Source: Terracidiphilus sp.
GTDB taxonomy: Bacteria; Acidobacteriota; Terriglobia; Terriglobales; Acidobacteriaceae
Length of the DNA: 64,000 bases
Reading direction: 5' to 3'
NCBI GenBank assembly: GCA_049515455.1
Contig: JBEKUB010000005.1
Span: 82,858-146,857, forward strand
Part shown: one piece after another, positions 1 to 16,903 of the stretch
Position numbering within the stretch: position 1 is the stretch's first letter
Layout: each line of letters begins with the position of its first letter
Translations under genes and position numbers: made by a program
The notes under the pieces: model-generated
What the model was told of the DNA's origin: nothing
The model's database searches: none
The model's input: only the letters and a program-made list of their open reading frames with translations

Positions 1-136
1 GCTCGACCATTGTCACCGAAGTCTCACTCGATGGCAAGCAAAAGCTATCGCCTGATTCGTAATTTTTAAGGAAGCGCAGACCGGCATCAGGCACGCTGGA
101 TACCGTCTCGTTTGGCGAGAGCTCCGGCGAGTCCAA

Positions 137-1039
137 TCAGCTGTTCGCAGGAACGTTGAACGAAGCCCGCTTCCGCAACCACCTCGCACGTTCCCGCATC
201 TCGTGCTGAATCTCGTCACACTTTGCGTTCACGTATCCTGGACCTTCAAAGCAAACTCCTTGTGCATGACGCCCCATCGCTTCGACTGCAGCGACCATTG
301 TCTTTGCAGGTTGGCCCGAAACTTGAACAGGCAGAAACGGAATGGCATGGATGGCGGCGAAGATGCAGCCGTGAAAGCTGCTGGAGATCACGAATCGCGA
401 TGAGGCGATCATGCGGAACGACTCTTCCGCCGACCCGGATTTAGCAGTCTTCTTTCCGGAAAAGCGCGGATAAAAATCATTAGACAGCACGATACGCGAA
501 CATTTCAACTCGCGCGCCCAACGTCTAACCACGGAGTCCTCGGGCGGCTTGAGCCCGGAGCAAACCAGGAGCTGGTTCCTTCGCGCCGCCTGTGCTGGGG
601 CCGATAGAAAACTGCAATCCGCCGCGAGACGAGCTGAAATACCGTGCTGTGCAAGGTAGCCGAAGCTGGCGACGTCACGCACCGCAATGAAGTCGGCGTA
701 TTTGTACATCTCGATCAGCTCATCGCAATTCCAGCAGCCGTGGTTCACAATCCAGACACGAACGTTTCGCTCCCGCGCCATCTTGAGGGAATTAAGTAGA
801 GCAACGGCTGTAGGCGTTCCGGAATGAACGCTGCCCTCTCCATTGATGACCAGCATGCCGGCTTTTTCGATGCGCTTCCACACCGCTTCGACCGGCTTGA
901 GCCGTCCGAGCGGCAGACGATCGGCGATGGTAAGGCCAACGCGTGAGAGGAGCTGTTCCAGATTCGTTGTAGTCAGCCAGGAGCCCCAATGCTCTCCCCG
1001 CACAGATCCGCGCGTATCGTTTGCGAGCAGGAAATTCAT
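137..1039 (-). CDS. Polysaccharide pyruvyl transferase family protein
   Basis: 300-aa ORF with INGEGS, DFIAVRD and C-terminal VISSSFHGCIFA..AIPF motifs typical of the family; start overlaps the upstream stop (ATGA, 1036-1039). Confidence 0.75.
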   Translation of the reverse strand: MNFLLANDTRGSVRGEHWGSWLTTTNLEQLLSRVGLTIADRLPLGRLKPVEAVWKRIEKAGMLVINGEGSVHSGTPTAVALLNSLKMARERNVRVWIVNHGCWNCDELIEMYKYADFIAVRDVASFGYLAQHGISARLAADCSFLSAPAQAARRNQLLVCSGLKPPEDSVVRRWARELKCSRIVLSNDFYPRFSGKKTAKSGSAEESFRMIASSRFVISSSFHGCIFAAIHAIPFLPVQVSGQPAKTMVAAVEAMGRHAQGVCFEGPGYVNAKCDEIQHEMRERARWLRKRASFNVPANS

Positions 1040-1929
1040 AGCGTGGCGTACCTGGTATCCGGATGAAGATTGACCGGTGGAATGTCGAATTGCCCGGTCA
1101 GTCGAGCATAGTAAGAAAACCAGCTATTGTTATAGATCAGTGAGTTGCAGTGGGCGAGCAAATACATCTCCACCAAGGCATTCCGCGCGTTCTCCAGCCC
1201 CAGATCTCTCCGATGCAATCGCCCGCCGCCCGCCTCGTGAAACGCCTTGGGCCGGGTAAACAGGCTCGATAACAGCAGCTTCAATTGCTGCTCTGCCTCT
1301 TGAGAGTCCGTGGCAAGGAAGATGCGAAACCGGCCTCTGAGGGTGGGTTTCATCACTTTGTACATTTGTCTGCATGCCGCGGCGATTTGGATGCATGATT
1401 CGTGGAGACCCGCGTCCGGCCGGAACCCCAGATACTCTCCGTTGCCGTGACGAAAATGGACCCCGAGTACGGTTGCGTCGGCAAATTCTTTGTGCCTGAA
1501 CTCGTCAATCTCCTGTTGTACATCGTCGTGTAATTGCAATCTTGAGTAGAATCTCTTTTGCGCTTCGAGCTCAGGAAAGATATGCATCGGCCTTCTGCAC
1601 AGAAGCGTAGGTGCCGGCAGATCCGTGCCTGCGGTCAGCAATGCATCATATTCGCAGCCTTCCATTCGATGAAGGAAGACGACAGGCTTGGGAAATTTTA
1701 ACCTGCGCAATGAGTCGTCGCAAATGAGTTTAACGCCGTCGATTTCCTCAGGTTTCCGGAACAGGTAGGGAAAGGCATTCGCTTTCCGGTCGGCAAGGTA
1801 AAGAGAGCTTCGCCAGTCGACAACGAGGGTCCTCGAGGTCCGGTGGGCATAGTACCAGGCGCCAAGCATGGTCGCCATGTCTGATCCCAGACCGGTCTTC
1901 TTCTTCGAGATCAGGAATCGCTCGTCCAT
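1036..1929 (-). CDS. nodZ: NodZ-like alpha-1,6-fucosyltransferase (GT23-like)
   Basis: From ATG 1929 (GGAGG upstream): KKKTGLGSDM..AWYYAHRTSRTLVVDWRSS, GVHFRHGNGE, IFLATDS, ALVEMYLLAHC match NodZ fucosyltransferase motifs as I recall them. The ORF-track extension to 2259 is probably not translated. Confidence 0.8.
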   Translation of the reverse strand: MDERFLISKKKTGLGSDMATMLGAWYYAHRTSRTLVVDWRSSLYLADRKANAFPYLFRKPEEIDGVKLICDDSLRRLKFPKPVVFLHRMEGCEYDALLTAGTDLPAPTLLCRRPMHIFPELEAQKRFYSRLQLHDDVQQEIDEFRHKEFADATVLGVHFRHGNGEYLGFRPDAGLHESCIQIAAACRQMYKVMKPTLRGRFRIFLATDSQEAEQQLKLLLSSLFTRPKAFHEAGGGRLHRRDLGLENARNALVEMYLLAHCNSLIYNNSWFSYYARLTGQFDIPPVNLHPDTRYATL

Positions 1930-2200
1930 TTTTATTCTTCTCGTCCCTCCCAGCAGTGAACTCCTGGAAGGAGTCAACCTTGAAGTACAGGAGCCAAAAT
2001 ATAACACAACATGCAGCGATCGCAGTAACTGGTTCCCAGGAAAGTCTAGACGCTTGAACAGCACATTATTGGATGCACATCGAAGTGCTTTTCGAGTAAT
2101 ATGAGTACCTCCAGATTCCTCGTGCCCTTCGCACTGCCGGCGCGCGAGAACAATCTTACCGCCATTCCGCAACCAGAATGCAGAAAAGAGAGTTTTCCTC

Positions 2201-3361
2201 ATGGCGACAAATATCGGATCAGTATTGAAAAAACCGGCAAGAATCCCTATCACCAACATCTATATGGACGGCGATTACACCGGAGAAGTCATTGTGGGAT
2301 CGCAGGGAAAGATTGCAAACGTGAATCTCGATACCGGCAGCAGCACCCTGGCATTCGATGGCCAGTTCTACAATCCGAGCCAGGATACCAGCGCTCAATT
2401 GACCAACATCGCGCAGGAAGTCATATACGGCCGCGGAAGCTGGGTTGGCGCCGTAGTGAGCTCCGACGTCTGCATCGGTGGCACAACCGTGAAGGAGGTG
2501 AACTTTGCGGTCGCCTACGTTGAGTCGAAGGAAATGTTTGGCAAAGCAAACGGGATCATGGGTCTGGCCTACACTCGCCTTAACAGCGCTTTCACATTGC
2601 CCGGAAAAACATGGCCGCCTAAATACCATTACAACCAGATACAAAATGGCAGCGTCACGTTTGTGGATCCCTATTTCACGCAATTGGAGAAAAGCGGTAT
2701 CTTTGCAAACAAATTCGCCTTCTACACGAGGCGCTCAAAGATAAGCCATGCGAAGACAAACCCCTCTGCTGATCCTCTTAACCATGGATACCTGATTCTC
2801 GGCGGCGGGGAAGAGAGCACGGATCTGTACGATAGTTCGAAGCCATTTCAAATTGTGCGGGTTTTGGACGATGTTTGGTACAACACCAACTTGAAGGCGA
2901 TTGTCGTCGGCTCAAGTGACCCGATTACCGTGCCCCCGCCTACCAAGGGAAGCGGCAACCTGACGAACTCGATCATAGATAGCGGGACAAGCAGCATCAC
3001 TTTGAGTCAAGAACTTTTCGATGCTGTAATCGCCCGGTTATCAAGCGGAGACAACAAGCAGTTTGCTCATGCAATGCGCGCGGGTTATCTTCCCATGGGC
3101 AGCCTCAACCGGAAGTTGTGGCCTCAGTTGGATTTCATTCTTGAAGGAGTTGATGGCGATGTCAGGATTGAGGTGTCGCCCCAGAACTATTGGCAGGTGA
3201 ATTCGCCTGAACGCGGATATGCCACTGCACCACTTCGAGGAGACGGAGAACGGCTGAAAGGGCGATCCATCCTGGGACTCCCACTGATGAACGGCTATTT
3301 CACGATATTCGACCGTTCGGAAGACCGGACGGGCGTGGTCAAGTTCTCCCCCCGGCGTTAA
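2201..3361 (+). CDS. Pepsin-like aspartic protease (family A1), no signal peptide
   Basis: Two catalytic motifs (LDTGSS, IDSGTS), flap YGRGSW, GIMGLA and ILGLPLMNGYFTIFD: a complete bilobed pepsin fold. Confidence 0.9.
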   Translation: MATNIGSVLKKPARIPITNIYMDGDYTGEVIVGSQGKIANVNLDTGSSTLAFDGQFYNPSQDTSAQLTNIAQEVIYGRGSWVGAVVSSDVCIGGTTVKEVNFAVAYVESKEMFGKANGIMGLAYTRLNSAFTLPGKTWPPKYHYNQIQNGSVTFVDPYFTQLEKSGIFANKFAFYTRRSKISHAKTNPSADPLNHGYLILGGGEESTDLYDSSKPFQIVRVLDDVWYNTNLKAIVVGSSDPITVPPPTKGSGNLTNSIIDSGTSSITLSQELFDAVIARLSSGDNKQFAHAMRAGYLPMGSLNRKLWPQLDFILEGVDGDVRIEVSPQNYWQVNSPERGYATAPLRGDGERLKGRSILGLPLMNGYFTIFDRSEDRTGVVKFSPRR

Positions 3362-3456
3362 CGTCACAGCCTTGTGATCATGGTCGGTTCTCCAGAGAGC
3401 CCCTCAGGCGCGCGACAAGAGGCTCTAAACGGGATTTGAGCCAGGAGATAGAACGG

Positions 3457-3612
3457 TCATACAGATTGGCCGATCCTATGCTTGACTTCCCTGCCGGCAA
3501 TGATCGCCATATCTGGTTTAACGCGGCCATTCGCTGCGTAGGCCGCCGGAAAGTACTTCCACCCAGCGTCGGTCTTCACTCTGCGTACCAGACCCACTTT
3601 GATGTCTGCCAT
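3457..3612 (-). pseudogene. Probable truncated N-terminus of a tyrosine recombinase/phage integrase
   Basis: 51-aa MADIKVGLVRRVKTDAGWKYFPAAYAANGRVKP... resembles, from memory, the N-terminal arm of acidobacterial site-specific integrases; no catalytic domain follows. Confidence 0.45.
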
Positions 3613-4121
3613 GGCGCCCCACTGCCAAAAACAATGGGCACAACCATAGCACGGAGGACAGATGGACGATTTCATTAGGATTTTTATGTATAAGCTGAGA
3701 CTCCCATTCTCTCCGCCACTGATTTATCCAACTCCACTAAGATCAGATATCTACAATAGAATCAACTGCCTTGCTGCTATTTGTCAGGATCTGTACTGTC
3801 TGTAAAGATCCCTGTTTTTCCCAAAAAATCCCTTAATTAGCCGCAGCATGGAGAAAAATCCGTCATTCCTCCCCAAACATTAAAAGAGGCCTTCCCAGAG
3901 AATCCTACATCGCTTGACAGACATCCAACAGCGGAGAGTAGGCCACAATCGAACAACGCAGAATAGGGCCACGAATGTAGGATTGCGGTCCCCTCTAATT
4001 CTTACTCGCGCGTGTACCCAACCGGCTTCACCGAGGAGGCAATCGTTCGCGGGTGGAGGATGAACGCGATTCCCAAAGCAGCGGCGACGTCATCGCGTCA
4101 GTGTTTTTCTGGAATCCGACT

Positions 4122-6794
4122 ATGCCACGATCCCCTTCGTCGTCCTATCGACTGCAACTCCATCGCACGTTCAACTTCGATGATGCCGCGAGAATCGCCC
4201 GATACCTCAAGGATCTGGGAATATCGCACGTCTACTGCTCGCCTTATTTGCGTGCGGCAGCAGGTAGTATGCATGGATACGATGTCATAGACCCTCGGGC
4301 AGTGAACCCCGAGTTGGGTGGCGAGGATGGCCTCTTGCGATTCAGCAGTGCGCTCGAAACCCTCGATCTGGGCCAGGTCCTCGACATTGTTCCCAACCAC
4401 ATGGCCGCAGGCCAGGAAAACACGTACTGGTGGGACGTGTTGGAAAACGGGCCATCAAGCCGATTCGCTGCGTGGTTCGATATAGATTGGAATTCTGCAG
4501 AAGTGAAGCTCCAGAACAAGGTGCTGATCCCTGTTCTGGGCGATCAGTATGGACGGGTCCTGAGCGCCAATCAGATCAAAATCAACTATGACGGTCAATC
4601 GTTTCAGTTGCGCTACTTCGACAACTCTTTTCCCTTGGCGCCCCGTTCGCTGGCAATTCCGTTGAGCGTGGCTGCCAAGCATGTGAACGCGCCGACGCTG
4701 GGCTTTATTGCCGATAGCCTGGCGCGGCTCCCTTCACCGGATTCATCAGAGGAGGAAGTGCTAACCGCGCGCCATCGCGACAAGACCATTCTCTACGAGC
4801 TTTTAGAACGTGTCACAAAAGAGCAACCGGGAGTAGTAGCGGCGATTACGCGCGCGATCGATGATCTGAATGCAAACATCGATGCGCTCGATTCCCTGCT
4901 CAATTTGCAAAACTATAGATTGGCGTATTGGCGTACAGCCGATCAGGAGCTTGGTTATCGCCGCTTCTTCGACGTCAATACTCTCATCGGTGTGCGAATC
5001 GAACGGCCGCAGGTTTTCGCAGCAACCCACTTTTGGATTATGGAGTGGTTGAGGAAAGGCGTTCTCGATGGAGTGCGGGTCGATCATCCAGACGGTTTGC
5101 GAGATCCCCAACTGTATTTTGAGCGGCTGCGCGCCGGCTCGCCCCAGGCCTGGATTGTCGCGGAGAAGATCCTGCGGCCCGAAGAATCATTACGTTCGGG
5201 CTGGCCTATCGACGGCACCACAGGATACGACTTCCTGAATGCATGTAATGGCCTTCTTGTTTATGGCGAAGGGCTGAATGAGTTGACGGAAGTTTATACA
5301 AACTTCATTCGGCAACCAGTTCAATTCGAATCGATGGTGCATACCAAGAAGCTGAACGTAGAACATGAGGCTTTAGGCAGCGATGTGAACCGGCTGGCGC
5401 AAATGTTCGTCGAGATCTGCGAGAATAATCGTGATCGCCGCGATTACACACGTGCCGAGATAAGGCGAGCCATCCGCGAGGTTGCTGCGAGTTTTTCCGT
5501 CTACAGAACCTATGTTGCGCCGGTGCGTGACGAGGTTACGGAGGAGGATATAAAACAAATCTCCAGTGCGGTAGCCTTCGCGAAAACACAAAGATCTGAT
5601 ATTTACCCTGATCTTTACGATTTCATTTGCGATGTGCTTACAATGCGCGCGCGCGGCAAGCTTGAAACAGAGTTTCTGCTTCGCTTTCAGCAGTTCACAT
5701 CTGCCGTAATGGCGAAGGGTCTTGAGGACGCAGCATTCTATTGCTACAACCGAATGATCGGACTCAACGAGGTGGGTGGCGCGCCAGAGCGTAGCGGAAT
5801 CACTCTCGATGAATTCCACTCATATTGCGCGCGAGCGCACGCCGATCATCCGCAAACGATGAACACTCTTACAACACACGACACCAAGAGATCAGAAGAT
5901 GTGCGTGCGCGATTGGCAGTGCTGACCGAAATGCCCGGAAACTGGCGTTCGGCCCTGCACCGCTGGTCGCGACGGAACCAGCAATTTAAAACCAAAACAT
6001 TCCCTGATCGCAATACTGAATACTTTCTCTACCAGACGCTGATCGGCGCGTGGCCAATTACGGTCGAACGCATTCAAGGCTACATGGAAAAGGCCGTCCG
6101 GGAAGCTAAGGAGCAAACGAGCTGGACACAACCGAATCAAGAGTTTGAGGATGCACTGAAACTCTTTATCGAACGGATCCTGGCATCAACTGATTTCGTT
6201 TCCGAGCTCGAATCATTTGTCGGGAAGGTCCTGCTTCCTGGGCGAGTCAACAGCCTGACGCAAACACTTCTTAAATGCACGGCGCCCGGAGTTCCAGACA
6301 CATACCAAGGCAGCGAATTATGGGATTTGCGACTCGTCGATCCAGACAATCGCGGGCCAGTTGATTATGAAACAAGAAGGGCAATGCTCGCGGAACTCGA
6401 TGCCGGCATCAGCGTCGACGAGATTATGAAGCGCATGGACAGCGGAATGCCAAAGCTATGGATTCTCTATAAAGCGCTGCATCTGCGGCGGGAAAACCCT
6501 GAGTGGCTCGGCAAGAATGCCGCATATATTCCGCTTCCAGTAGAAGGGCCTAAGTGGGCGCATTTGATCGCATTTTCTCGAGGCGATTCAGTCGCTGTGA
6601 TAGCTCCTCGCTGGAATGTCAAGCTCGGCAGCGGGTTTGGTTCCATGACTGTCGATCTGCCGCCGGGAGACTGGACCAACCTCTTCACCGGAGAAGCAAG
6701 AAGCGGTGGACGTGTGCGCGCACAACAATTGTTTGGAAAGTTTCCGGTAGCGCTCCTTGTACGTGACAGAGGTGCAGGCGATGTATCGGTTTAG
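4122..6794 (+). CDS. treY: Malto-oligosyltrehalose synthase
   Basis: SSYRLQ, HGYDV, DIVPNHM, YRRFFDV, RVDHPDGL, EKIL, THDTKRSEDVRAR, LVDPDNR. Alternative GTG start at 4053. Confidence 0.95.
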   Translation: MPRSPSSSYRLQLHRTFNFDDAARIARYLKDLGISHVYCSPYLRAAAGSMHGYDVIDPRAVNPELGGEDGLLRFSSALETLDLGQVLDIVPNHMAAGQENTYWWDVLENGPSSRFAAWFDIDWNSAEVKLQNKVLIPVLGDQYGRVLSANQIKINYDGQSFQLRYFDNSFPLAPRSLAIPLSVAAKHVNAPTLGFIADSLARLPSPDSSEEEVLTARHRDKTILYELLERVTKEQPGVVAAITRAIDDLNANIDALDSLLNLQNYRLAYWRTADQELGYRRFFDVNTLIGVRIERPQVFAATHFWIMEWLRKGVLDGVRVDHPDGLRDPQLYFERLRAGSPQAWIVAEKILRPEESLRSGWPIDGTTGYDFLNACNGLLVYGEGLNELTEVYTNFIRQPVQFESMVHTKKLNVEHEALGSDVNRLAQMFVEICENNRDRRDYTRAEIRRAIREVAASFSVYRTYVAPVRDEVTEEDIKQISSAVAFAKTQRSDIYPDLYDFICDVLTMRARGKLETEFLLRFQQFTSAVMAKGLEDAAFYCYNRMIGLNEVGGAPERSGITLDEFHSYCARAHADHPQTMNTLTTHDTKRSEDVRARLAVLTEMPGNWRSALHRWSRRNQQFKTKTFPDRNTEYFLYQTLIGAWPITVERIQGYMEKAVREAKEQTSWTQPNQEFEDALKLFIERILASTDFVSELESFVGKVLLPGRVNSLTQTLLKCTAPGVPDTYQGSELWDLRLVDPDNRGPVDYETRRAMLAELDAGISVDEIMKRMDSGMPKLWILYKALHLRRENPEWLGKNAAYIPLPVEGPKWAHLIAFSRGDSVAVIAPRWNVKLGSGFGSMTVDLPPGDWTNLFTGEARSGGRVRAQQLFGKFPVALLVRDRGAGDVSV

Positions 6795-8535
6795 AGTTTG
6801 GGCGCCGCTTGCGCGGAACGTCTCGGTCAAGTCCGGCGGCGTCGCATACGCGACGCAAGGCCCTGATGACCGCGGCTGGTGGGAGCAGCAGGTTGAAGAG
6901 GCAGGACCTGGAACGGACTACGGCTACCTTCTCGATGACGATCCGAAGCCCTATCCCGATCCGCGCTCTGAGTGGCAACCTAACGGTGTGCACGGGCTAT
7001 CGCGTATCTACGATCAATCAGCTTTTGAATGGAGCGATGCGCGTTTTCAGGCGCCTCCGCTGCCAAGCGCGATCATCTATGAATTGCATATCGGAACTTT
7101 CACGCCGGAGGGCACGTTCGATGCTGCGGCTGGCAAGCTCGCATACCTGGCCGAGCTTGGCGTGACGCACGTCGAACTGATGCCTGTGAATGCTTTTGAA
7201 GGGCAACACGGCTGGGGCTATGACGGTGTAGCGCTCTTCTCCGTTCATAAACCATACGGAGGTCCGGACGGTCTTAAGCGATTTGTGAATGCGGCGCATC
7301 AGGCGAGGCTCGCCGTGCTGCTCGATGTGGTGTACAACCACTTTGGGCCGAGCGGAAACTACACCGGTAAATTCGGACCGTATACTGTCCCGTCGCATCG
7401 GACGCCCTGGGGCGGCGCAGTGAATCTTGAGGATGCAGGGTCCACTGAGGTTCGTCGGTTTTTTTGCGACAACGCGATGATGTGGCTTCGCGACTTCCAC
7501 GTCGATGGACTGCGCATCGATGCGGTACATGCGTTCGTCGATCGCTCCGCCATTCACTTTCTGGAGCAGCTGGCCGTTGAAGTAGATGCATTGGAGGCAA
7601 TCCTCGCGCGCCGGCTTGTTCTCATCGCCGAAAGCGATCTAAACGATCCTCGCGTAGTGACGCCGCATGAAGCGGGAGGATTCGGTATCGATGCACAGTG
7701 GAACGATGACTTTCATCATGCGCTTTCCACCGTACTGAACGCGAACGAGAGGCAAGGCTATTACGCGGACTTCGGCACATTTGAGCAGCTGGCAAAATCG
7801 CTTGAGCGGACTTTCGTGTATGACGGCATCTACTCCCGTTATCGACAACGCATCCATGGCCGCCCAACCTACGCGCTCCCGCAGCACCGCTTTCTCGGTT
7901 ACATTCAAACGCACGACCAGATAGGCAATCGCGCAGTGGGTGACCGGATCGGTCATATTGCAGGCCTGGAGCGCGTGAAAATCGCGGCCGCGCTGTACCT
8001 GCTCAGCCCATTTATTCCAATGCTTTTTCAGGGAGAAGAGTGGGCAGCATCAACTCCGTTTCTCTACTTCGCCGACCACGATGATCCGGAATTAGCGCAG
8101 GCAGTATCCGAGGGGAGAAAGAAAGAGTTTGTCGCGTTCGGATGGGATCCCGCTTCCATTCCCGATCCTGAAAGTCCGGGGACCTTTGAAGCTTCAAAAC
8201 TGAAATGGGAGGAACTCGAGGTCGGCCACCATGCCCAAATGCTGTCGTGGTATCAGGCATTGATTCACATGCGCCGGTCCACGCCATGTCTCAATGATGG
8301 AAGCATCGGCAATGTGCATGTAACATTCGATGAACAAAAAAAGTGGCTGCGAATGAGACGCGGAACCATAACGGTAATCTGCAATCTCGGCGAGCTGGAA
8401 CAGATCTTCGACGTTCTCCAGGAAAGCCGCGTCGTCCTCGCATCACGGAGCGCAATCCAAGTTAGTCGGGGCAAGCTGAGCATGCCGCCTGATTCCATTG
8501 CTGTCGTGAGCGAATTCCCTTCTAAAAATGCCTGA
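6781..8535 (+). CDS. treZ: Malto-oligosyltrehalose trehalohydrolase
   Basis: FRVWAP, PDPRS, YELHIGTF, WGYDGV, DVVYNH, RIDAVH, IAESDLND, HDQIGNR; overlaps the treY stop. Confidence 0.95.
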   Translation: MYRFRVWAPLARNVSVKSGGVAYATQGPDDRGWWEQQVEEAGPGTDYGYLLDDDPKPYPDPRSEWQPNGVHGLSRIYDQSAFEWSDARFQAPPLPSAIIYELHIGTFTPEGTFDAAAGKLAYLAELGVTHVELMPVNAFEGQHGWGYDGVALFSVHKPYGGPDGLKRFVNAAHQARLAVLLDVVYNHFGPSGNYTGKFGPYTVPSHRTPWGGAVNLEDAGSTEVRRFFCDNAMMWLRDFHVDGLRIDAVHAFVDRSAIHFLEQLAVEVDALEAILARRLVLIAESDLNDPRVVTPHEAGGFGIDAQWNDDFHHALSTVLNANERQGYYADFGTFEQLAKSLERTFVYDGIYSRYRQRIHGRPTYALPQHRFLGYIQTHDQIGNRAVGDRIGHIAGLERVKIAAALYLLSPFIPMLFQGEEWAASTPFLYFADHDDPELAQAVSEGRKKEFVAFGWDPASIPDPESPGTFEASKLKWEELEVGHHAQMLSWYQALIHMRRSTPCLNDGSIGNVHVTFDEQKKWLRMRRGTITVICNLGELEQIFDVLQESRVVLASRSAIQVSRGKLSMPPDSIAVVSEFPSKNA

Positions 8536-9328
8536 TTGATTGGCTCGCAGTTGTAGCTTCGTCCGGCATGTGCGTCCGCTCACCGGTGTGCTCGACGTGA
8601 CTCTCCAGAGAGCGGCTGACGAGATCGCGCAAGCCGAGGCCAACCGCGAGAGCAAGTGTAAGAACAATACCGCCGAACAAGATTCCAAACGCGAGTTCGA
8701 CGATATTCCCGCCTACCTGCAAATGGTCGAGGACCATGGCCCCTGTCAGAACAAGAACAAGCCACTTCACGCCCAGGGACAGAATTCTCGCGTATTGCAA
8801 CTGTGCGTTCACGGCGCTGATCAGGACCGAGCGGGCAAGAAATCTGGCGATCACAATACCCGCAATCAGCAGAAGGGCGGCACCAACGGCATGAGTCAGA
8901 TAGGGCAACAACGAAATGGGCAGAGCTACGCCGGTTGCGTACGACGTATCGAAGGCCGAAACACCAATGACGAGACCAAGCAACACGCAGATCCAGAATG
9001 AGGCGCGGGCCGCGATCTCGCTCGGTGAGCTGGCCGGCGCCCAATCTGTACCGCTCTTGCGGGCGACGCGAAGGTCGAATTTTGCCCATGTAAGACACCG
9101 GCGCAATATCCAGGAAATCAGCATGCCAGCCAAAGCGAAGACCAGGAGCGAAAGAAAGAACGCAAGAATCCCGGGTAGCACGGCAATAAGCAGAGTGAGC
9201 ACGCGGTAAAGCGACTGGTGCAAAGCATCAGACATGTGATGCCAGATCGACACGTCTTCGCTGTACAGCGGTGATGCGGTGATGTTTCGAGTTGCCTGTT
9301 GAATCGTGTTATCGACCAGGTTTTGCAT
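8522..9328 (-). CDS. Multi-pass membrane protein, MscS TM-helix-repeat/CmpX-like
   Basis: AAGGAGG RBS; several hydrophobic helices; AFGILFGGIVLTLALAVGLG motif; no soluble MscS beta-domain. Confidence 0.6.
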   Translation of the reverse strand: MQNLVDNTIQQATRNITASPLYSEDVSIWHHMSDALHQSLYRVLTLLIAVLPGILAFFLSLLVFALAGMLISWILRRCLTWAKFDLRVARKSGTDWAPASSPSEIAARASFWICVLLGLVIGVSAFDTSYATGVALPISLLPYLTHAVGAALLLIAGIVIARFLARSVLISAVNAQLQYARILSLGVKWLVLVLTGAMVLDHLQVGGNIVELAFGILFGGIVLTLALAVGLGLRDLVSRSLESHVEHTGERTHMPDEATTASQSIRHF

Positions 9329-9386
9329 CGGATTCCCTCCTTATTGGCGCACCAGATTGACGCCCAGCCCTTGGCGTGAAGAATGA

Positions 9387-10577
9387 TTACGAATTGAACC
9401 GGTCTGGCCAACGCCACCGCGCGACCAGGTATGGCTTGTCCGCTTCGAACGAGGCGGCAACAGCTTCAATGTGTCGCTCTGCTGGAATTCCGGATGCCGT
9501 CACGTTGATATGACCTGCGACCCAGGCCAGATAAAGTGGGATCAGTGCTCCTAAGAGGTGCCCGCGGTTGATCGTGCGCAGGCGGTAAGCGATGAGAAAG
9601 TCATAAACAATGCGTGCCCAAAGGCCGTCCGGCATGCGGAAGGCGGCGGGATCAAGCGTCGAGCAACGTTTAAGTCCAAGCAAGGAATTGGGCGGCAAGA
9701 CAAGCGACCAGATCTCCTGCAGGTTCGCGTTGGCTAGTTGAAATGCCGCAACCATGCGCGCAACATTCGCGGTTCCGTCGCTCAGTTCAGCCTCAACAAT
9801 CGGCCGGCGTATCGGCGGCGCCCTGCGAGGCCGCTGCCAAAGAGCCGCTTTCGCTTCGAGATCCGCAAAAAGCGATCCAGTTATCAAGGAAAGAATTGAA
9901 TTGATGTCGGGATCAGAGGGTTGGGGCATTGCACGCGATCCCACATCAACTTCATCCGCCGCGAAGCCGGCCGCAATAGCTTCGTTCACCGGCCACACAA
10001 GAACTTCACCTTGGTTGACAGCAGAAACTCGTTCAGCAGCCAAGCTAAGTTGCTCTGCCATTCTCAGCGACATGCCAAGATCAATTGACAACGGAAAGCG
10101 GACACGCGAAGCAAAGATCGCTCGTGTCAGAGGGTAAAGAATGGCTGAGTTGATCAGGCCGGCATTCGATGGCAGAGAATAATGTGGAACAGCCAGGTCA
10201 ATGGACGCTTTTGAAACAGCATCGTTCAGGCCGCGCAGCGCGAGCGGGCTAAGCGAATCGGCTTCTGGCCCGAGAATCAGAATTACCTGCGCTCCATGCT
10301 TGCGACCGAACTGCGCTGCATTCACAAAGTCGACCGGTTTAATCGACCATGCCGCATTTGACTGCGGCGTTGCGACGATTCGAAGGCTCGAGGGAACATC
10401 GGCAGGCAATTCATTCTGCGTCGCCACAATAAAGTTTTCGGGAGAGAATGCGGATGCGAGGTTCGCCAGAACTCCATTGAAATGCTCGGGAGCCATGGCC
10501 GTCACCAGCACGAGAAGCTCGGCCACCGTGTTGTCTGTAGCCAGCGTGTTATCGGGAATTGGATTCGCCGTTGCCAT
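9387..10577 (-). CDS. GT2-like protein related to glucosylglycerate synthase-type glycosyltransferases, catalytic motifs degenerate
   Basis: ILYPLTRAIF, WARIVYDF, LIPLYLAWV and FEADKPYLVARW resemble that family, but there is no DxD (GPEADSL at the expected site). Confidence 0.55.
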   Translation of the reverse strand: MATANPIPDNTLATDNTVAELLVLVTAMAPEHFNGVLANLASAFSPENFIVATQNELPADVPSSLRIVATPQSNAAWSIKPVDFVNAAQFGRKHGAQVILILGPEADSLSPLALRGLNDAVSKASIDLAVPHYSLPSNAGLINSAILYPLTRAIFASRVRFPLSIDLGMSLRMAEQLSLAAERVSAVNQGEVLVWPVNEAIAAGFAADEVDVGSRAMPQPSDPDINSILSLITGSLFADLEAKAALWQRPRRAPPIRRPIVEAELSDGTANVARMVAAFQLANANLQEIWSLVLPPNSLLGLKRCSTLDPAAFRMPDGLWARIVYDFLIAYRLRTINRGHLLGALIPLYLAWVAGHINVTASGIPAERHIEAVAASFEADKPYLVARWRWPDRFNS

Positions 10578-10643
10578 TATTCTCCGGAGGAAGCCGCAAG
10601 GAATTAAGTTCCCTCACTAGTAAAATTACTTTGTTGCAAAACC

Positions 10644-13600
10644 CTATAAAGCCAGAACGCCATCGAGCGGAATGCAGACCCAGGAGGGTCGGTTATTCAA
10701 CTCGTACAGCAACTCATACAAAGCCTTTTCAAGCAGGTAGGCGTCGAGCAGAATTTGGGCTTCTCTTGGCGGCGGCAACAGATCCGGATTCGCCGCGATG
10801 CCCTCGCGGTATGAAGAAAGGAAATAAGAGGTCGCCGAATCTTGCCAAAGCTGCGCCCACCCCATGAGCGTGGCGCGATCGATCAGGTGTTTCCCGCCTC
10901 CCTCGCCTGCAATACAAAGATCAACCGCGGCAAATGCGGCGTAAGCAAAGGATCGCATCATGCCGACAACGTCTTTCAACGGTGACTGTTTTCTTCGTCG
11001 TTCTTCAATTGACCGTGCAGGCTCACCTTCGAAGTCGATGATAACGAAATCTCCCTTTTGATTCTTCTCGGCAATAGAGCCGCCGCTGGTGCCAGCGATT
11101 CGCAATGTCTGCCCTAAATGATAGTCGCCGTGAATTCGGATCCGCTGCCCGGCAGCTGCAACTGTCTGAATCGTACGTGCCAGCTGAATGAGTTCGGGCC
11201 GACGGGATATAAGCAAGCCCGCACGATCAGAGGTCGCATCATCCAGCTCGGGGAGCTTGAATTTAAGCGCTTCGACGGTGGACTTTATTTGTAGCTCGAT
11301 GCGTTCTGCGTCGTGGGCAAGCTCGTCACTTGTAAGTGGCTCGGGAACGAACGCTGCGAGCGTCGAACTGCTCGAAAGTGCGAGGTGGAGTTCGGCAGTG
11401 CGCCTACCCAAGAGTGCTGCCGCCTCGAGCGTCGATCGAATCGGTTCCAGAGGTTCCAAGATCGGCTCGCGCTCGCTCAGCCAGCTGGGAGCAGTTGATC
11501 GTGGAGGGGCCACGTGCTCCCCAGCGGCGGAAAGCCAGCCGGCAAGTTCGTCAAGGTACCACTGCCATCCATTGCCCTGGTTGGCAACCATCCCCTGGAG
11601 CAGAGCGACCGTCGTTTTTGCCGCACTGTCTGAACTGATGGAGATTTCGCCGAGAAAAGGCGGAATTCTGTTGAAGTGAGCAACCTCCGTCAAAAAACGG
11701 CCAACTTCAACATCAGGATTTTCCCCCGGTTGCAGTCGGCGATAAATCTTGAGAAATAGTCGCTTGCCGAAGAGAATGGACGTGTTTGATTGCTCGGCAG
11801 AGCCGACGTGAGAAGGTAACCGCTGAGCGGCCAGGACGGATGGAAATGCGCCGGAAGGACGCGCATGAAGCCGGCCGCCCTCATAAAACGAGTCCCCTGC
11901 AGAAGGAGACTCGCGCGGCTCGAATCTTGACGCTCCAGCTGACTGGTTTGACGGGATGTCAGTTCGTGGCGGCATTGCTGTGTCGCCGGGCTGAGCGCTG
12001 AGTGGAGCTGGCGTGACCGCAGCGCCGACCGAGACCGCTTGCGCTTCATCGCCGATCGACGACGGCTGATTGAAGCCGCTCTCCGCCGCTTTCGTTGACT
12101 CTGTGCTTTCAAAAACAGGCAGGGTCGCGTCGCTCGCAATCAAGCTCAGGAGTTCATGCTGAAAATCCTCGCTGACAGTCGCGTCATGCAGAATTGCGGG
12201 CCCAGCACTCGTAGTCAGTTTGGCAACGATGCTATCGGGCTGACCTTCGACGATTTCCTCAAGAAGAGCGCCCGTCGTCACTGCGAGCGGGATCTGATAG
12301 ACATCCGGCGAACCATCGAAATACGTCACCTCAAAGAAGAACAGTGCACTTGGAACGGCCACCGGCTCTGATACGTTGTTCGTTGAAAGACCTTCAGGCT
12401 TCGCATCGGGCGCAAGTTCCACCCAGTTGCGGACACGCACGGACTCGATTTTGTGCGTCTTGGCGCCAAACCATCGCTTGCGCGGCAACCAGTCAAGGAG
12501 CGCCTGCTCACAAATTGCGGCGCCGCCGCCAGCGATGAATTGCGTCCATCCATTCGCAAAGACCGGTTGAACAGTCTCGGCTTCCTCTTGCACAGACTCT
12601 TGTGTGACCACTTCAACATCGGGCGGCATCTCCTCGACCTCACTGGCAGCCTGCAGTTCAAGCCAGATAAAGGAATACGGAGCCAGTGTGAGCGAGTATG
12701 GTTCGGGCGTGACGGCGGGAAACCGAACGTAGCCTAGCATCTCGACCGGTTCGTAGCCTGCATAGCTTGCGAGATCGAGCGAAACCGGCTGGGCAAATCG
12801 GCTGAGGTTGGCGACGCAGAGCACCGTTTCACAGAATCCGTCCCCATGGTCCAGTTCGCGAAGGTAAGCAAGAATCTTGCGATTCGATGGATTTAGAAAC
12901 GCGAGTGTTCCGCGGCCAAATACCTGAAAGAGCTTTCGCAGCGCAATCATGTTACGCGTCCAGTGCAGAAGGCTCGATTGATCGTCGAGCTGTGCTTCCA
13001 CATTCACAACCTGGTAGCCATAAATGGGGTCCATGACTACCGGCAAATAGAGCCGCGCCGGATCGCATTTGGAAAAGCCCGCATTCCGATCCGACGTCCA
13101 TTGCATCGGCGTCCGAACGCCATTGCGATCGCCGAGATAGATGTTGTCGCCCATCCCGATCTCATCGCCGTAATACAAAATTGGCGTGCCGGGGAAACTG
13201 AACAAAAGTGACTTCAATAGTTCAATACGGCGGCGATTATTGTCGACCAGCGGAGCCAGCCTGCGCCGTATGCCAACATTGATGCGCATCCGCGGGTCGG
13301 CCGAATAGGCGAAATACATATAGTCGCGCTCATCATCGGTGACCATCTCGAGCGTCAGTTCGTCGTGATTCCGCAGAAAGAGCCCCCACTGGCAGTTTTC
13401 GGGAATTGGCGGCGTCTGTGCCATGATGTCGGTGATCGGGAGCCGGTCTTCCTGGCGAAGTGCCATGTAGATGCGCGGCATGAGCGGAAAATGAAACGCC
13501 ATGTGACACTCGTCGCCGTCGCCAAAATACGGACGCACGTCCGCAGGCCACTGATTGGCTTCCGCAAGAATTAGACGATTTGCATACTCCGCATCAATCG

Positions 13601-14309
13601 CTGCGCGCAGAGTTTTTACTACTGCATGAGTCTCGGGCAGGTTTTCGCATGAAGTTCCATCCCGCTCGCAAAGATATGGAATCGCATCCATGCGAAGCCC
13701 ATCGACCCCCATATCAAGCCAAAATCGCATTGCCTTCAGCACTTCTTCCATCACCAGCGGGCTGTCGTAGTTGAGGTCCGGCTGGTGCGAAAAAAAACGA
13801 TGCCAATAGTAGGCCTTCGCCGCTTCGTCCCAGGTCCAGTTTGATTTTTCTGTGTCAGTGAAGATGATGCGCGCATCCTCATACCGTTCTTCATTGTCCG
13901 ACCAGACGTACATATCTCGTTCCGCCGAACCCGCAGGAGACTGGCGCGCTGCCTTGAACCATGGATGTTGATCGCTGGTGTGATTCACGACCAATTCGAT
14001 CATCACCTGCAGGCCGCGGTGATGAGCAGCGTCAAGAAACGCCTTGAAATCGCTCAGTGTTCCATACGACGGGTTGACGTCGATGTAATTGGAGATGTCG
14101 TACCCATCGTCGCGCATTGGCGACGGGAAAAATGGCAAGAGCCAGATGCAGGTGATTCCAAGATCCTTCAAATAATCAAGATGCGACATCAGGCCCGGAA
14201 AATCACCGATACCGTCGTTATTCGAATCCGCAAACGCGCGAACGTGCAGTTCATAGATGATCGCGTCTTTATACCAGAGGGGATCTGTTGTGCTTGCGAT
14301 CTTCTTCAC
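10644..14309 (-). CDS. treS: Trehalose synthase (maltose alpha-D-glucosyltransferase) fused to maltokinase
   Basis: WYKDAIIYE, DDGYDIS, HRFFSHQPDLN, RMDAIPY, FLRNHDELTLE; C-terminal Mak domain EQSNTS, RIHGDYHLGQ, IIDFEGEP, KALYEL.YE. Confidence 0.95.
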   Translation of the reverse strand: MKKIASTTDPLWYKDAIIYELHVRAFADSNNDGIGDFPGLMSHLDYLKDLGITCIWLLPFFPSPMRDDGYDISNYIDVNPSYGTLSDFKAFLDAAHHRGLQVMIELVVNHTSDQHPWFKAARQSPAGSAERDMYVWSDNEERYEDARIIFTDTEKSNWTWDEAAKAYYWHRFFSHQPDLNYDSPLVMEEVLKAMRFWLDMGVDGLRMDAIPYLCERDGTSCENLPETHAVVKTLRAAIDAEYANRLILAEANQWPADVRPYFGDGDECHMAFHFPLMPRIYMALRQEDRLPITDIMAQTPPIPENCQWGLFLRNHDELTLEMVTDDERDYMYFAYSADPRMRINVGIRRRLAPLVDNNRRRIELLKSLLFSFPGTPILYYGDEIGMGDNIYLGDRNGVRTPMQWTSDRNAGFSKCDPARLYLPVVMDPIYGYQVVNVEAQLDDQSSLLHWTRNMIALRKLFQVFGRGTLAFLNPSNRKILAYLRELDHGDGFCETVLCVANLSRFAQPVSLDLASYAGYEPVEMLGYVRFPAVTPEPYSLTLAPYSFIWLELQAASEVEEMPPDVEVVTQESVQEEAETVQPVFANGWTQFIAGGGAAICEQALLDWLPRKRWFGAKTHKIESVRVRNWVELAPDAKPEGLSTNNVSEPVAVPSALFFFEVTYFDGSPDVYQIPLAVTTGALLEEIVEGQPDSIVAKLTTSAGPAILHDATVSEDFQHELLSLIASDATLPVFESTESTKAAESGFNQPSSIGDEAQAVSVGAAVTPAPLSAQPGDTAMPPRTDIPSNQSAGASRFEPRESPSAGDSFYEGGRLHARPSGAFPSVLAAQRLPSHVGSAEQSNTSILFGKRLFLKIYRRLQPGENPDVEVGRFLTEVAHFNRIPPFLGEISISSDSAAKTTVALLQGMVANQGNGWQWYLDELAGWLSAAGEHVAPPRSTAPSWLSEREPILEPLEPIRSTLEAAALLGRRTAELHLALSSSSTLAAFVPEPLTSDELAHDAERIELQIKSTVEALKFKLPELDDATSDRAGLLISRRPELIQLARTIQTVAAAGQRIRIHGDYHLGQTLRIAGTSGGSIAEKNQKGDFVIIDFEGEPARSIEERRRKQSPLKDVVGMMRSFAYAAFAAVDLCIAGEGGGKHLIDRATLMGWAQLWQDSATSYFLSSYREGIAANPDLLPPPREAQILLDAYLLEKALYELLYELNNRPSWVCIPLDGVLAL

Positions 14310-14345
14310 GCTTTCACTCTCCCAAAAACCTCGGCCCTTGCTGCA

Positions 14346-16457: not shown

Positions 16458-16903
16458 GCGGGTCCTCAATAGAGAGCACCGCTGCCACGGGATCGGTCGA
16501 AGGAAAGCCGAAGTTGGCCGCACACCGAACGCCAAGCCGAGGGGATCGCCAATTGAGCAGCAGCAACCTTAAAGATGCTCCAGAAGGGAAGCAGGATGCT
16601 CGGCCCCCAAACCGAACACTCTTAAGCACCTCACCTTTTGGGGATTTCGCGCAAAACAAATCGTTGTTATCCCGGTTGGGATGAACACGCGCAACTCAGA
16701 TTTAGGTCGTCTTCTTGCTGAATGCTGACCGTCTCTATCGTGTTATATCGGGCAAGGAGCCTCGGAATTCACGGAATCCTATTCCAACCTTGCCATCGTG
16801 CTTTCTGCAACTTACAGGATTGAAAAGGGAGAAGAAAGAACGAATCAAACCCTACTTGGCATGAAGCGAAATATGCTTTTCGCCACTCCTGGGTTGCGTC
16901 AAA

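What the first reader, a model, noticed from the sequence alone, without database searches (positions are those of the whole stretch)
2201..3361. Eukaryote-type bilobed pepsin with no signal peptide or propeptide
Seen: DTG and DSG catalytic motifs, flap Tyr, both hydrophobic-hydrophobic-Gly motifs and a polar N-terminus. Known: A1 pepsins are mainly eukaryotic and patchy in bacteria (e.g. Shewanella shewasins, also leaderless). It is divergent from the NodZ-like operon across a ~270-bp spacer, so the two may be co-regulated as one accessory module.
Basis: partly seen in the sequence, partly recalled or inferred. Interest (0 to 1): 0.62.

Follow-up and report, generated by a model that had tools for sequence, protein, structure and literature searches.

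The report
Leaderless bacterial pepsin beside glycoprotein operon
A peat-soil acidobacterium encodes an intact, signal-less relative of stomach pepsin, a known but little-understood kind of bacterial enzyme, and it sits at the head of an operon that appears to hydroxylate and glycosylate a proline/threonine-rich repeat protein, which hints at what such proteases cut.

Summary
ORF 2201-3361 (+) encodes a 386-aa family-A1 (pepsin-fold) aspartic peptidase with both catalytic motifs, the flap Tyr and both psi-loop motifs. It has no signal peptide, no prosegment and one Cys.

It is not an isolated eukaryote-like oddity. It belongs to a large, mostly acidobacterial family: more than 1,300 homologues, and 173 clusters at 50% identity. 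All members are leaderless. The closest described relatives are the Shewanella shewasins.

The link to the NodZ-like gene is real but narrower and deeper than proposed. In six lineages (pepsin identity 67% or more) the pepsin stays divergent from one roughly 10-kb operon while its other flank changes every time. The operon order is (NodZ-like), pyruvyltransferase, P4H-like oxygenase, SDR, Pro/Thr-rich repeat protein, JmjC/Cupin_8, GT2, O-FucT-like.

Two other pepsin sub-clades head related glycosyltransferase and repeat-protein clusters. Pepsins linked to such clusters are not monophyletic (AU p = 5e-6).

Most other family members instead pair with an MTA/SAH-nucleosidase-like gene, which is twice fused to the pepsin.

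Best reading: a cytoplasmic, dedicated processing protease tied to this protein-glycosylation module. The link is inferred, not shown.

The parts
2201..3361 (+). CDS of the 386-aa leaderless pepsin-family (A1) aspartic peptidase homologue
   Evidence: ORF; Pfam PF00026 E 6.2e-22 over the full length; AF2 pLDDT 90.5; Foldseek best hit BACE1, E 1.5e-23, TM 0.74
2330..2344 (+). First catalytic motif D44-T-G-S-S (pepsin Asp32 equivalent)
   Evidence: D44, T45, G46, S47 and S48 invariant in 42 relatives
2426..2428 (+). Flap tyrosine Y76 (pepsin Tyr75 equivalent)
   Evidence: aligned with the BACE2 flap Tyr; invariant
2555..2563 (+). First psi-loop hydrophobic-hydrophobic-Gly motif I119-M120-G121
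   Evidence: aligned with NGILGLAY of BACE2; I119 and G121 invariant
2978..2992 (+). Second catalytic motif D260-S-G-T-S (pepsin Asp215; Thr218 equivalent T263 retained)
3269..3280 (+). Second psi-loop motif I357-L358-G359, followed by L360 at the position of pepsin Asp303
   Evidence: position assignment by alignment with the pepsin motif ILGD (own knowledge)
1930..2200 (.). 271-bp divergent spacer between the pepsin gene and the NodZ-like operon. It holds a block conserved in three species (about 2074-2106) with a -10-like TAATAT at 2097-2102
   Evidence: alignment of the spacers of the window, L014 and L022. Promoter role is inferred; the consensus promoter scan found nothing here. An RNA contig covers 2159-2366
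1036..1929 (-). NodZ-like (GT23) fucosyltransferase gene, first gene of the divergent operon in this lineage
   Evidence: Pfam PF05830 E 1.6e-48; gene aa
137..1039 (-). Polysaccharide pyruvyl transferase gene, overlaps the NodZ-like gene by 4 nt. It is the operon gene that neighbours the pepsin in all six lineages
   Evidence: Pfam PF04230 E 3.2e-20; synteny

Best explanation
The gene encodes a catalytically competent aspartic endopeptidase of the pepsin family (MEROPS A1 type). It has no signal peptide, zymogen prosegment or disulfides, so it folds and works in the cytoplasm like the Shewanella shewasins. It is one member of a large, mainly acidobacterial family. In this lineage it is the divergently transcribed head gene of a roughly 10-kb operon whose products all lack leader sequences. 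The operon order is NodZ-like fucosyltransferase, pyruvyltransferase, P4H-like 2OG oxygenase, SDR, a 400-560-aa Pro/Thr/Gly/Ser-rich repeat protein, JmjC/Cupin_8 hydroxylase, GT2, O-FucT-like. The most likely role is a dedicated, site-specific processing protease of this module. It would cut the repeat protein, or another protein the module has hydroxylated or glycosylated. The analogy is SamP/shewasin A, which cuts its precursor only after that precursor has been modified. Shown here: family membership, intact active-site residues, lack of leader and prosegment, predicted fold, conserved and recurrent gene linkage, and weak in-situ transcription. Inferred: proteolytic activity, cytoplasmic location, the identity of the substrate, and co-regulation.
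For: Identity. Family: 1,321 homologues, and all 120 listed keep DTGSS and D-[ST]-G-T-x, have 0-2 Cys (apart from one 471-aa call with a probably spurious N-terminal extension) and no leader. Linkage: in six lineages with pepsin identity 100, 89, 72, 70, 69 and 67% the pepsin is divergent from the same operon, while the gene on its other side differs in all six (TreY; hydrolase fragment; an unannotated 381-aa ORF; DUF3142; PD40-like; ParB-like). Operon content, including the repeat protein conserved in L008, L014, L015, L108 and L109. Two other pepsin sub-clades (L018/L036/L038 and L079) start co-directional clusters of O-FucT/GT10/GT15/DUF6625/GT2 genes plus Pro/Ser/Thr-rich proteins. L109 bridges the cluster types. 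On the pepsin tree the module-linked genes need at least 3 changes on well-supported branches, and holding them as one clade is rejected (p-AU 4.6e-6). A related cluster carries a different leaderless acid-type protease, a sedolisin. All operon products lack leader or TM segments. RNA contigs at 100% identity from one wetland metatranscriptome lie on the pyruvyltransferase gene, the NodZ-like gene and the pepsin 5' end. Precedent: shewasin D is cytoplasmic and pepstatin-sensitive (PMC4814920). Shewasin A is a modification-dependent RiPP peptidase active near neutral pH (bioRxiv 10.1101/2024.01.09.574750).
Against: No biochemical data exist for any member of this family. Most family members are not next to glycosyltransferases. 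About 27 of 101 loci have a PNP_UDP_1-like gene upstream and many have no recurrent neighbour. One module variant (L109) shows no pepsin within 10 kb upstream of its Cupin_8 gene; its contig ends about 2.7 kb downstream. Conserved synteny among six lineages of one clade could be inheritance alone. The repeat protein is almost devoid of the bulky hydrophobic residues that pepsin-type enzymes prefer at P1/P1'. The Thr218 equivalent is retained, which is typical of acid-active enzymes, and that is odd for a cytoplasmic enzyme. The RNA evidence is thin: contigs of depth 2-5, with DNA carry-over possible.
Confidence: 0.5

Rival explanations
1. It is a stand-alone cytoplasmic protease used for general or regulated protein turnover. 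Its position next to the glycosylation operon is inherited synteny with no functional meaning.
For: Most family members have other neighbours or none that recur. The six syntenic lineages form one clade. L109 has the module without an adjacent pepsin.
Against: The non-operon flank differs in all six lineages while the operon flank never does. Linkage to related clusters recurs in two further sub-clades, and monophyly is rejected. A sedolisin occupies a related cluster.
Confidence: 0.3
2. It is a RiPP maturase of the SamP (shewasin A) type. It serves a borosin or other peptide gene cluster encoded elsewhere in the genome.
For: The only bacterial pepsin with a known native substrate is a borosin peptidase, and 56 such peptidases are encoded away from their cluster. 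The family's commonest partner resembles MTA/SAH nucleosidases, which would fit a SAM-using pathway.
Against: No tetrapyrrole-methylase-type gene appears in the precomputed Pfam lists within about 8-10 kb either side of the gene. None recurs among 119 immediate neighbours of 74 relatives. The PNP-like partner is absent from the 64-kb window. Thr218 is retained, unlike in the shewasins (PMC2761423).
Confidence: 0.08
3. It is exported by a non-classical route and works outside the cell as an acid protease that feeds the bacterium in acidic peat.
For: The organism is found in peat and wetland metagenomes. The Thr218 equivalent typical of acid-active pepsins is retained. At least one distant family member has a clear signal peptide (P0193).
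Against: There is no signal peptide or TM segment and only one Cys. All 120 close relatives are leaderless. Shewasin D was shown not to be secreted.
Confidence: 0.07
4. It is a non-catalytic pepsin-fold protein, a binding or inhibitor protein like the plant TAXI xylanase inhibitors.
For: Weak sub-threshold Pfam hits to TAXi_N and TAXi_C.
Against: Both catalytic Asp, the flap Tyr and the psi-loops are invariant across the family. The TAXi scores are below their cut-offs and lie under the stronger Asp match.
Confidence: 0.03

Closest known systems
Shewasin A (SamP) and shewasin D of Shewanella (bacterial family-A1 pepsin homologues)
   Same: Single-domain bilobed pepsin homologue. No signal peptide, no prosegment and no conserved disulfides. 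The nearest eukaryotic relatives are the memapsins (BACE). Encoded next to genes that modify a protein or peptide.
   Different: Thr218 is retained here (it is replaced in the oceanic bacterial homologues, PMC2761423). No borosin N-methyltransferase is nearby. The neighbours are hydroxylases, glycosyltransferases and a repeat protein. The host is an acidobacterium and the family is far larger.
BACE1 / BACE2 (memapsins), the closest solved structures
   Same: Best sequence hits in the PDB (E 4e-10) and best fold hits (E 1.5e-23, TM 0.74). Same DTGS/DSGT motifs, flap Tyr and psi-loops. A non-acidic residue sits at the pepsin Asp303 position.
   Different: About 19-21% identity. BACE enzymes are secreted-pathway, membrane-anchored and disulfide-bonded, and are made as proenzymes. 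This protein has none of those features.
Bacterial pepsin homologues of Rawlings & Bateman 2009 (Colwellia, Shewanella, Marinomonas, Sinorhizobium)
   Same: Predicted intracellular, bilobed, with all active-site elements kept.
   Different: That study found seven species among more than 900 genomes and none in Acidobacteria. Here the family has more than 1,300 members, mostly from soil and peat Acidobacteriota.
Cytoplasmic Skp1 prolyl-hydroxylation and glycosylation pathway of Dictyostelium/Toxoplasma (own knowledge; an analogue for the operon, not for the protease)
   Same: A P4H-type oxygenase plus soluble glycosyltransferases, including fucosyltransferase activity, acting on a protein in the cytoplasm.
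   Different: No protease belongs to that pathway and its substrate is a folded protein with one modified proline. No homology was tested here.

Membership tests
Peptidase family A1 (pepsin family; Pfam PF00026) | Profile match above the curated threshold over the whole domain | tested here: met
   78.9 bits against a cut-off of 19.9, model positions 2-312 of 315
Peptidase family A1 (pepsin family; Pfam PF00026) | Two catalytic Asp, one per lobe, in D-T/S-G-T/S motifs | tested here: met
   D44-TGSS and D260-SGTS, aligned with the BACE2 motifs; invariant in the family
Peptidase family A1 (pepsin family; Pfam PF00026) | Flap Tyr75 and two hydrophobic-hydrophobic-Gly psi-loop motifs | tested here: met
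   Y76; I119-M120-G121; I357-L358-G359
Peptidase family A1 (pepsin family; Pfam PF00026) | Bilobed pepsin fold | tested here: met
   Prediction only: AF2 pLDDT 90.5, pTM 0.89; Foldseek hits to BACE1, plasmepsin X and proteinase A, E about 1e-23, TM 0.66-0.75
Peptidase family A1 (pepsin family; Pfam PF00026) | Pepstatin-sensitive endopeptidase activity that depends on both Asp | not testable with these tools
   Needs the recombinant enzyme
Leaderless bacterial pepsins (shewasin type) | No signal peptide, no prosegment, no conserved disulfides | tested here: met
   Hydropathy; 25 residues before the domain and the first strand at residues 13-22; one Cys
Leaderless bacterial pepsins (shewasin type) | Thr218 replaced (Ala in the shewasins), proposed to allow activity near neutral pH | tested here: not met
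   T263 is retained here, and the equivalent Thr is retained in all 120 close homologues; literature
Leaderless bacterial pepsins (shewasin type) | Encoded in, or in a genome with, a borosin (alpha-N-methyltransferase) gene cluster | tested here: not met
   No such gene within about 8-10 kb either side of the gene, and none recurs beside 74 relatives. Genome-wide presence could not be tested because the genome search was shut
Secreted eukaryotic pepsin zymogens (subfamily A1A) | Signal peptide, basic prosegment of about 40-50 residues, three disulfides | tested here: not met

The most novel reading that the evidence does not exclude
The pepsin is the maturation protease of an undescribed bacterial cytoplasmic pathway. 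That pathway hydroxylates, fucosylates, pyruvylates and otherwise glycosylates an extensin- or mucin-like Pro/Thr-rich repeat protein and then cleaves it. The enzyme would be a modification-dependent protease like SamP, but acting on a glycoprotein. Bacterial 'pepsins' in general would then be dedicated processing enzymes recruited repeatedly to different protein-modification clusters (borosin, PNP-like partner, glyco-module).
Probability: 0.25. Interest if true: 0.8.

Novelty: new variant of a known kind. Interest (0 to 1): 0.5.

Why it matters
Bacterial pepsin homologues have been treated as rarities. Their only known job is the maturation of borosin peptides in Shewanella. This work shows a family of more than a thousand leaderless pepsins in soil and peat Acidobacteriota. 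It gives that family two testable genomic partners. One is an MTA/SAH-nucleosidase-like protein, which is sometimes fused to the pepsin. The other, in this genome, is an operon that looks like a cytoplasmic protein hydroxylation and glycosylation line built around a Pro/Thr-rich repeat protein.

If the link is functional, it names a candidate substrate for a bacterial pepsin. It also points to an extensin- or mucin-like glycoprotein pathway in bacteria. If the link is not functional, the gene is simply one more member of a described family.

Tried and rejected
- **Recent transfer from a eukaryote:** rejected. GC3 is 0.62, against 0.57-0.65 for neighbouring genes. The best PDB identity is only about 20%. 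The family is deep and broad.
- **NCBIfam and PADLOC:** neither has a model for the protein, so there is no support for a defence-system role.
- **Integrase remnant:** the minus-strand ORF at 3457-3675 looked to me like an integrase N-terminal remnant, which would have marked an island border. It has no Pfam match, so I dropped the idea.
- **Regulatory elements:** there are no Rfam matches in 1-4200. The consensus promoter and terminator scan was no better than shuffled sequence.
- **Family partner or paralogue in the window:** neither the PNP-like partner nor a pepsin paralogue is present in the 64-kb window.
- **Borosin link:** no evidence locally.
- **Whole-genome searches:** The genome search and the fetch from genomes were shut. 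I therefore could not test paralogues, a distal borosin cluster, or phyletic co-occurrence across genomes.
- **Shewasin sequences:** these were not available to any tool, so no direct identity or joint tree with them was made.

Full report
**1. Observation**

The ORF at 2201-3361 (+) exists as described. It was called as the same 386-aa product on six independent metagenome contigs.

- **Family match.** It matches Pfam PF00026 (eukaryotic aspartyl protease) end to end at E 6.2e-22. No NCBIfam model matches.
- **Active-site elements.** Against solved structures the best sequence hits are BACE2 and BACE1 (E 4e-10). D44-TGSS, the flap Y76, the GIMGLAY psi-loop, D260-SGTS and the C-terminal ILGL psi-loop are all aligned with their counterparts.
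- **Predicted fold.** An AlphaFold2 model built on 42 relatives is confident (pLDDT 90.5, pTM 0.89). Foldseek returns BACE1, plasmepsin X and yeast proteinase A at E about 1e-23 and TM 0.66-0.75.
- **No extension possible.** The ORF cannot be extended upstream. A stop lies at 2102-2104 and no start codon follows it before 2201.
- **No leader or prosegment.** The first 50 residues contain no hydrophobic stretch and the protein has no TM-like segment. It has one Cys. Residues 13-22 already form the first strand of the fold, so there is no room for a leader or a prosegment.
- **Spacer.** The NodZ-like gene really starts at window 1929, which leaves a 271-bp divergent spacer.

**2. The family**

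The protein is not an isolated eukaryote-like gene.

- A word-seeded search found 1,321 homologues. The best 120 are all at least 54% identical. The named ones are 'pepsin-like aspartic protease' from Acidobacteriaceae, Terracidiphilus and Terriglobales MAGs.
- A full HMM search of 1.84 billion 50%-identity representatives gave 173 clusters at E 1e-30 or better.
- Relatives at 44-47% identity occur in Stellaceae, an uncultured alphaproteobacterium, Pelomonas candidula and an Opitutaceae MAG.
- All 120 close homologues keep DTGSS and D-[ST]-G-T-x. They have 0-2 Cys, apart from one 471-aa call whose long N-terminal extension is probably spurious. All have polar N-termini.
- The gene's GC3 (0.62) is like its neighbours'.
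- The organism is abundant in peat and wetland metagenomes.

This is a long-resident bacterial lineage of the kind first described by Rawlings & Bateman in 2009 (PMC2761423). It is exemplified by shewasin D, which is cytoplasmic, pepstatin-sensitive and has an optimum at pH 3.5-4 (PMC4814920). It is also exemplified by shewasin A/SamP.

One difference from those enzymes is that the Thr218 equivalent (T263) is kept here. The residue at the pepsin Asp303 position is Leu360, which is invariant in the family. By established knowledge of renin and BACE, loss of Asp303 goes with activity at higher pH. That is inference only.

**3. The neighbourhood**

The window starts inside the operon, so I fetched the same locus from metagenome contigs.

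On the strand opposite to the pepsin, eight co-directional genes follow the spacer:

- a NodZ-like gene (GT23);
- a pyruvyltransferase;
- a 2OG-Fe(II) oxygenase of the P4H type;
- an SDR;
- a 397-aa ORF made of YPP, GPGT, PTPTPTSK and GSG repeats with a basic tail;
- a JmjC/Cupin_8 hydroxylase;
- a 617-aa GT2;
- a 513-aa O-FucT-like protein.

Gene callers mostly missed the repeat ORF. The same protein, with the same N-terminal segment and the same order of repeat blocks, is nevertheless encoded on the operon strand in four other lineages (L014, L015, L108, L109). None of the operon products has a leader or a TM helix.

I reached that reading independently from the sequences.

**4. Is the pepsin part of it?**

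I compared 109 loci. After dereplication at 90% identity these represent 74 pepsin lineages.

1. **Conserved on one side only.** In six lineages, with pepsin identity 100, 89, 72, 70, 69 and 67%, the pepsin lies divergent from this operon. The gene on its other side is different in all six.
2. **NodZ is not the constant.** It is absent beside the pepsin in L015 and L108, and in L108's contig it sits about 20 kb away. NodZ-like orthologues number only about ten clusters.
3. **Two further sub-clades head related clusters.** In L018/L036/L038 the order is pepsin, O-FucT, GT10, then GT15 (on the opposite strand), two Pro/Ser/Thr-rich proteins, GT2 and two large unknown proteins. In L079 the order is pepsin, DUF6625, two unknown proteins, a Pro/Ser-rich protein, GT2 and the same two large proteins.
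4. **The cluster types are related.** L109 joins them. It has a YPP-repeat protein, then the two large proteins, then Cupin_8 and the 617-aa-type GT2.
5. **The linked pepsins are not one clade.** On a maximum-likelihood tree the module-linked pepsins fall in three places, each sister to pepsins with another partner. Forcing them into one clade is rejected (p-AU 4.6e-6).
6. **Specificity control.** No Pro/Thr/Ser-rich ORF occurs in the rest of the 64-kb window, or near the other long-flank relatives, apart from two probably spurious ones.
7. **A different protease in the same setting.** A related cluster (L105, L107) carries a leaderless sedolisin next to its GT2, Cupin_8 and NodZ-like genes.
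8. **Transcription.** One wetland metatranscriptome holds 100%-identical contigs on the pyruvyltransferase gene, the NodZ-like gene and the pepsin 5' end at 2159-2366.

Points against a functional link:

- L109 shows no pepsin within 10 kb upstream of its Cupin_8 gene, and its contig ends about 2.7 kb downstream.
- The majority partner in the family is something else (section 5).

**5. The family's commonest partner**

About 27 of the 101 loci in the first set compared carry, directly upstream and co-oriented, a gene of 370-405 aa with a weak PNP_UDP_1 match. Its profile finds MTA/SAH nucleosidases in the PDB (E 8e-7). It is fused to the pepsin domain in L063 (795 aa) and in P0146 (850 aa). 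It is absent from this window.

The family therefore seems to be a portable protease that has been paired with different partners.

**6. Mechanism**

Shewasin A is the only bacterial pepsin with a known native substrate. It is a RiPP peptidase that cleaves its precursor efficiently only after alpha-N-methylation, and it works near neutral pH (bioRxiv 10.1101/2024.01.09.574750).

By analogy, and from the linkage above, I propose that this enzyme is a cytoplasmic, zymogen-free processing protease. Its specificity would depend on modifications installed by the divergent operon, and its most likely substrate would be the repeat protein.

The catalytic mechanism is the standard A1 one: two Asp activate a water molecule, and a flap closes over the substrate. 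It follows from family membership. Activity, location, substrate and co-regulation are all inferred.

A conserved block with a -10-like TAATAT at 2097-2102 in the spacer is a candidate promoter. The consensus scan did not support it.

**7. Novelty and verdict**

The protein is a new member of a described kind, the leaderless bacterial A1 pepsin homologues, and public annotation already names its relatives. What I did not find in the searched literature is:

- the size of the acidobacterial family;
- its PNP-like partner and the fusions with it;
- the recurrent linkage to glycosyltransferase, hydroxylase and repeat-protein clusters.

I therefore rate it a new variant of a known kind, of moderate interest. 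It is downgraded in generality: it holds for some sub-clades, not for the whole family.

The genome search was shut, so genome-wide questions remain open.

Noticed in passing
L008:2785-3978 (minus strand), about 1.8-3.0 kb left of the window's first base; also L014:821-2323(-), L015:810-2495(-), L109:772-2154(+): A 400-560-aa ORF made almost only of YPP, GPGT/PGYPT, PTPTPTSK, GSG/GSS and DGP repeats with a Lys/Arg-rich tail. It is co-directional with the hydroxylase and glycosyltransferase operon and conserved in five lineages. The repeat region's length differs by multiples of 3 nt between strains of the window's own species. Gene callers mostly call other frames.
   Followed up: partly
L019:8770-9960, L001:3680-4867, L033:3010-4125 and about 24 other loci; fusions in L063:5565-7952 and protein P0146: A 370-405-aa PNP_UDP_1-like (distant MTA/SAH-nucleosidase-like) gene sits directly upstream of most acidobacterial pepsin homologues and is twice fused to the pepsin domain. 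It is absent from this window.
   Followed up: partly
homologues P0033-P0120 (e.g. P0080, P0069, P0102): About half of the close homologues carry a conserved N-terminal extension: a Lys/Arg-rich stretch followed by (R)(I/L/F)(L/V)SAAAALGGK(M)S. It could be a mini-prosegment or a partner-binding tag. The window's protein lacks it.
   Followed up: no
L018:14147-14962 and 15142-16293; L079:13212-14198 and 14232-15125: Pro/Ser/Thr-rich proteins downstream of pepsin homologues share three features: an N-terminal helical segment, a mucin-like linker, and a C-terminal Cys cluster (CxCC/CCC) followed by a Thr/Ala/Ile-rich hydrophobic tail (TAITAITAIA).
   Followed up: no
L105:1627-3402(-), L107:2106-3014(-), L057:5093-6790(-): Leaderless sedolisin-type (Pro-kuma_activ + Peptidase_S8) proteases lie convergent with NodZ-like genes and next to GT2/Cupin_8 in a related cluster. 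A third copy lies 3.5 kb from a pepsin homologue.
   Followed up: partly
L109:2168-9067; L018:17351-21179; L079:16102-21149; L105:7189-9123: Two large proteins (about 1,000-1,300 aa) with no Pfam match recur in the repeat-protein clusters. The first has 3-4 hydrophobic segments near its C-terminus.
   Followed up: no
window 3362-4052: A 690-bp stretch between the pepsin gene and treY has no convincing gene, only small ORFs specific to this species. It holds a 25-bp unit repeated twice at about 3923-3972, and there are no Rfam matches.
   Followed up: partly
L104:11140-15006: In one relative a CHAT-protease gene with DUF7363, DUF7379 and DUF7362 genes lies between the relocated NodZ-like gene and the rest of the operon.
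   Followed up: no
window 4053-16535: A trehalose and alpha-glucan gene set (TreY-like 4053-6794, TreZ-like 6757-8535, a 1,221-aa TreS/Mak-like gene at 10644-14309) follows the pepsin only in this species. It is not part of the conserved block.
   Followed up: partly
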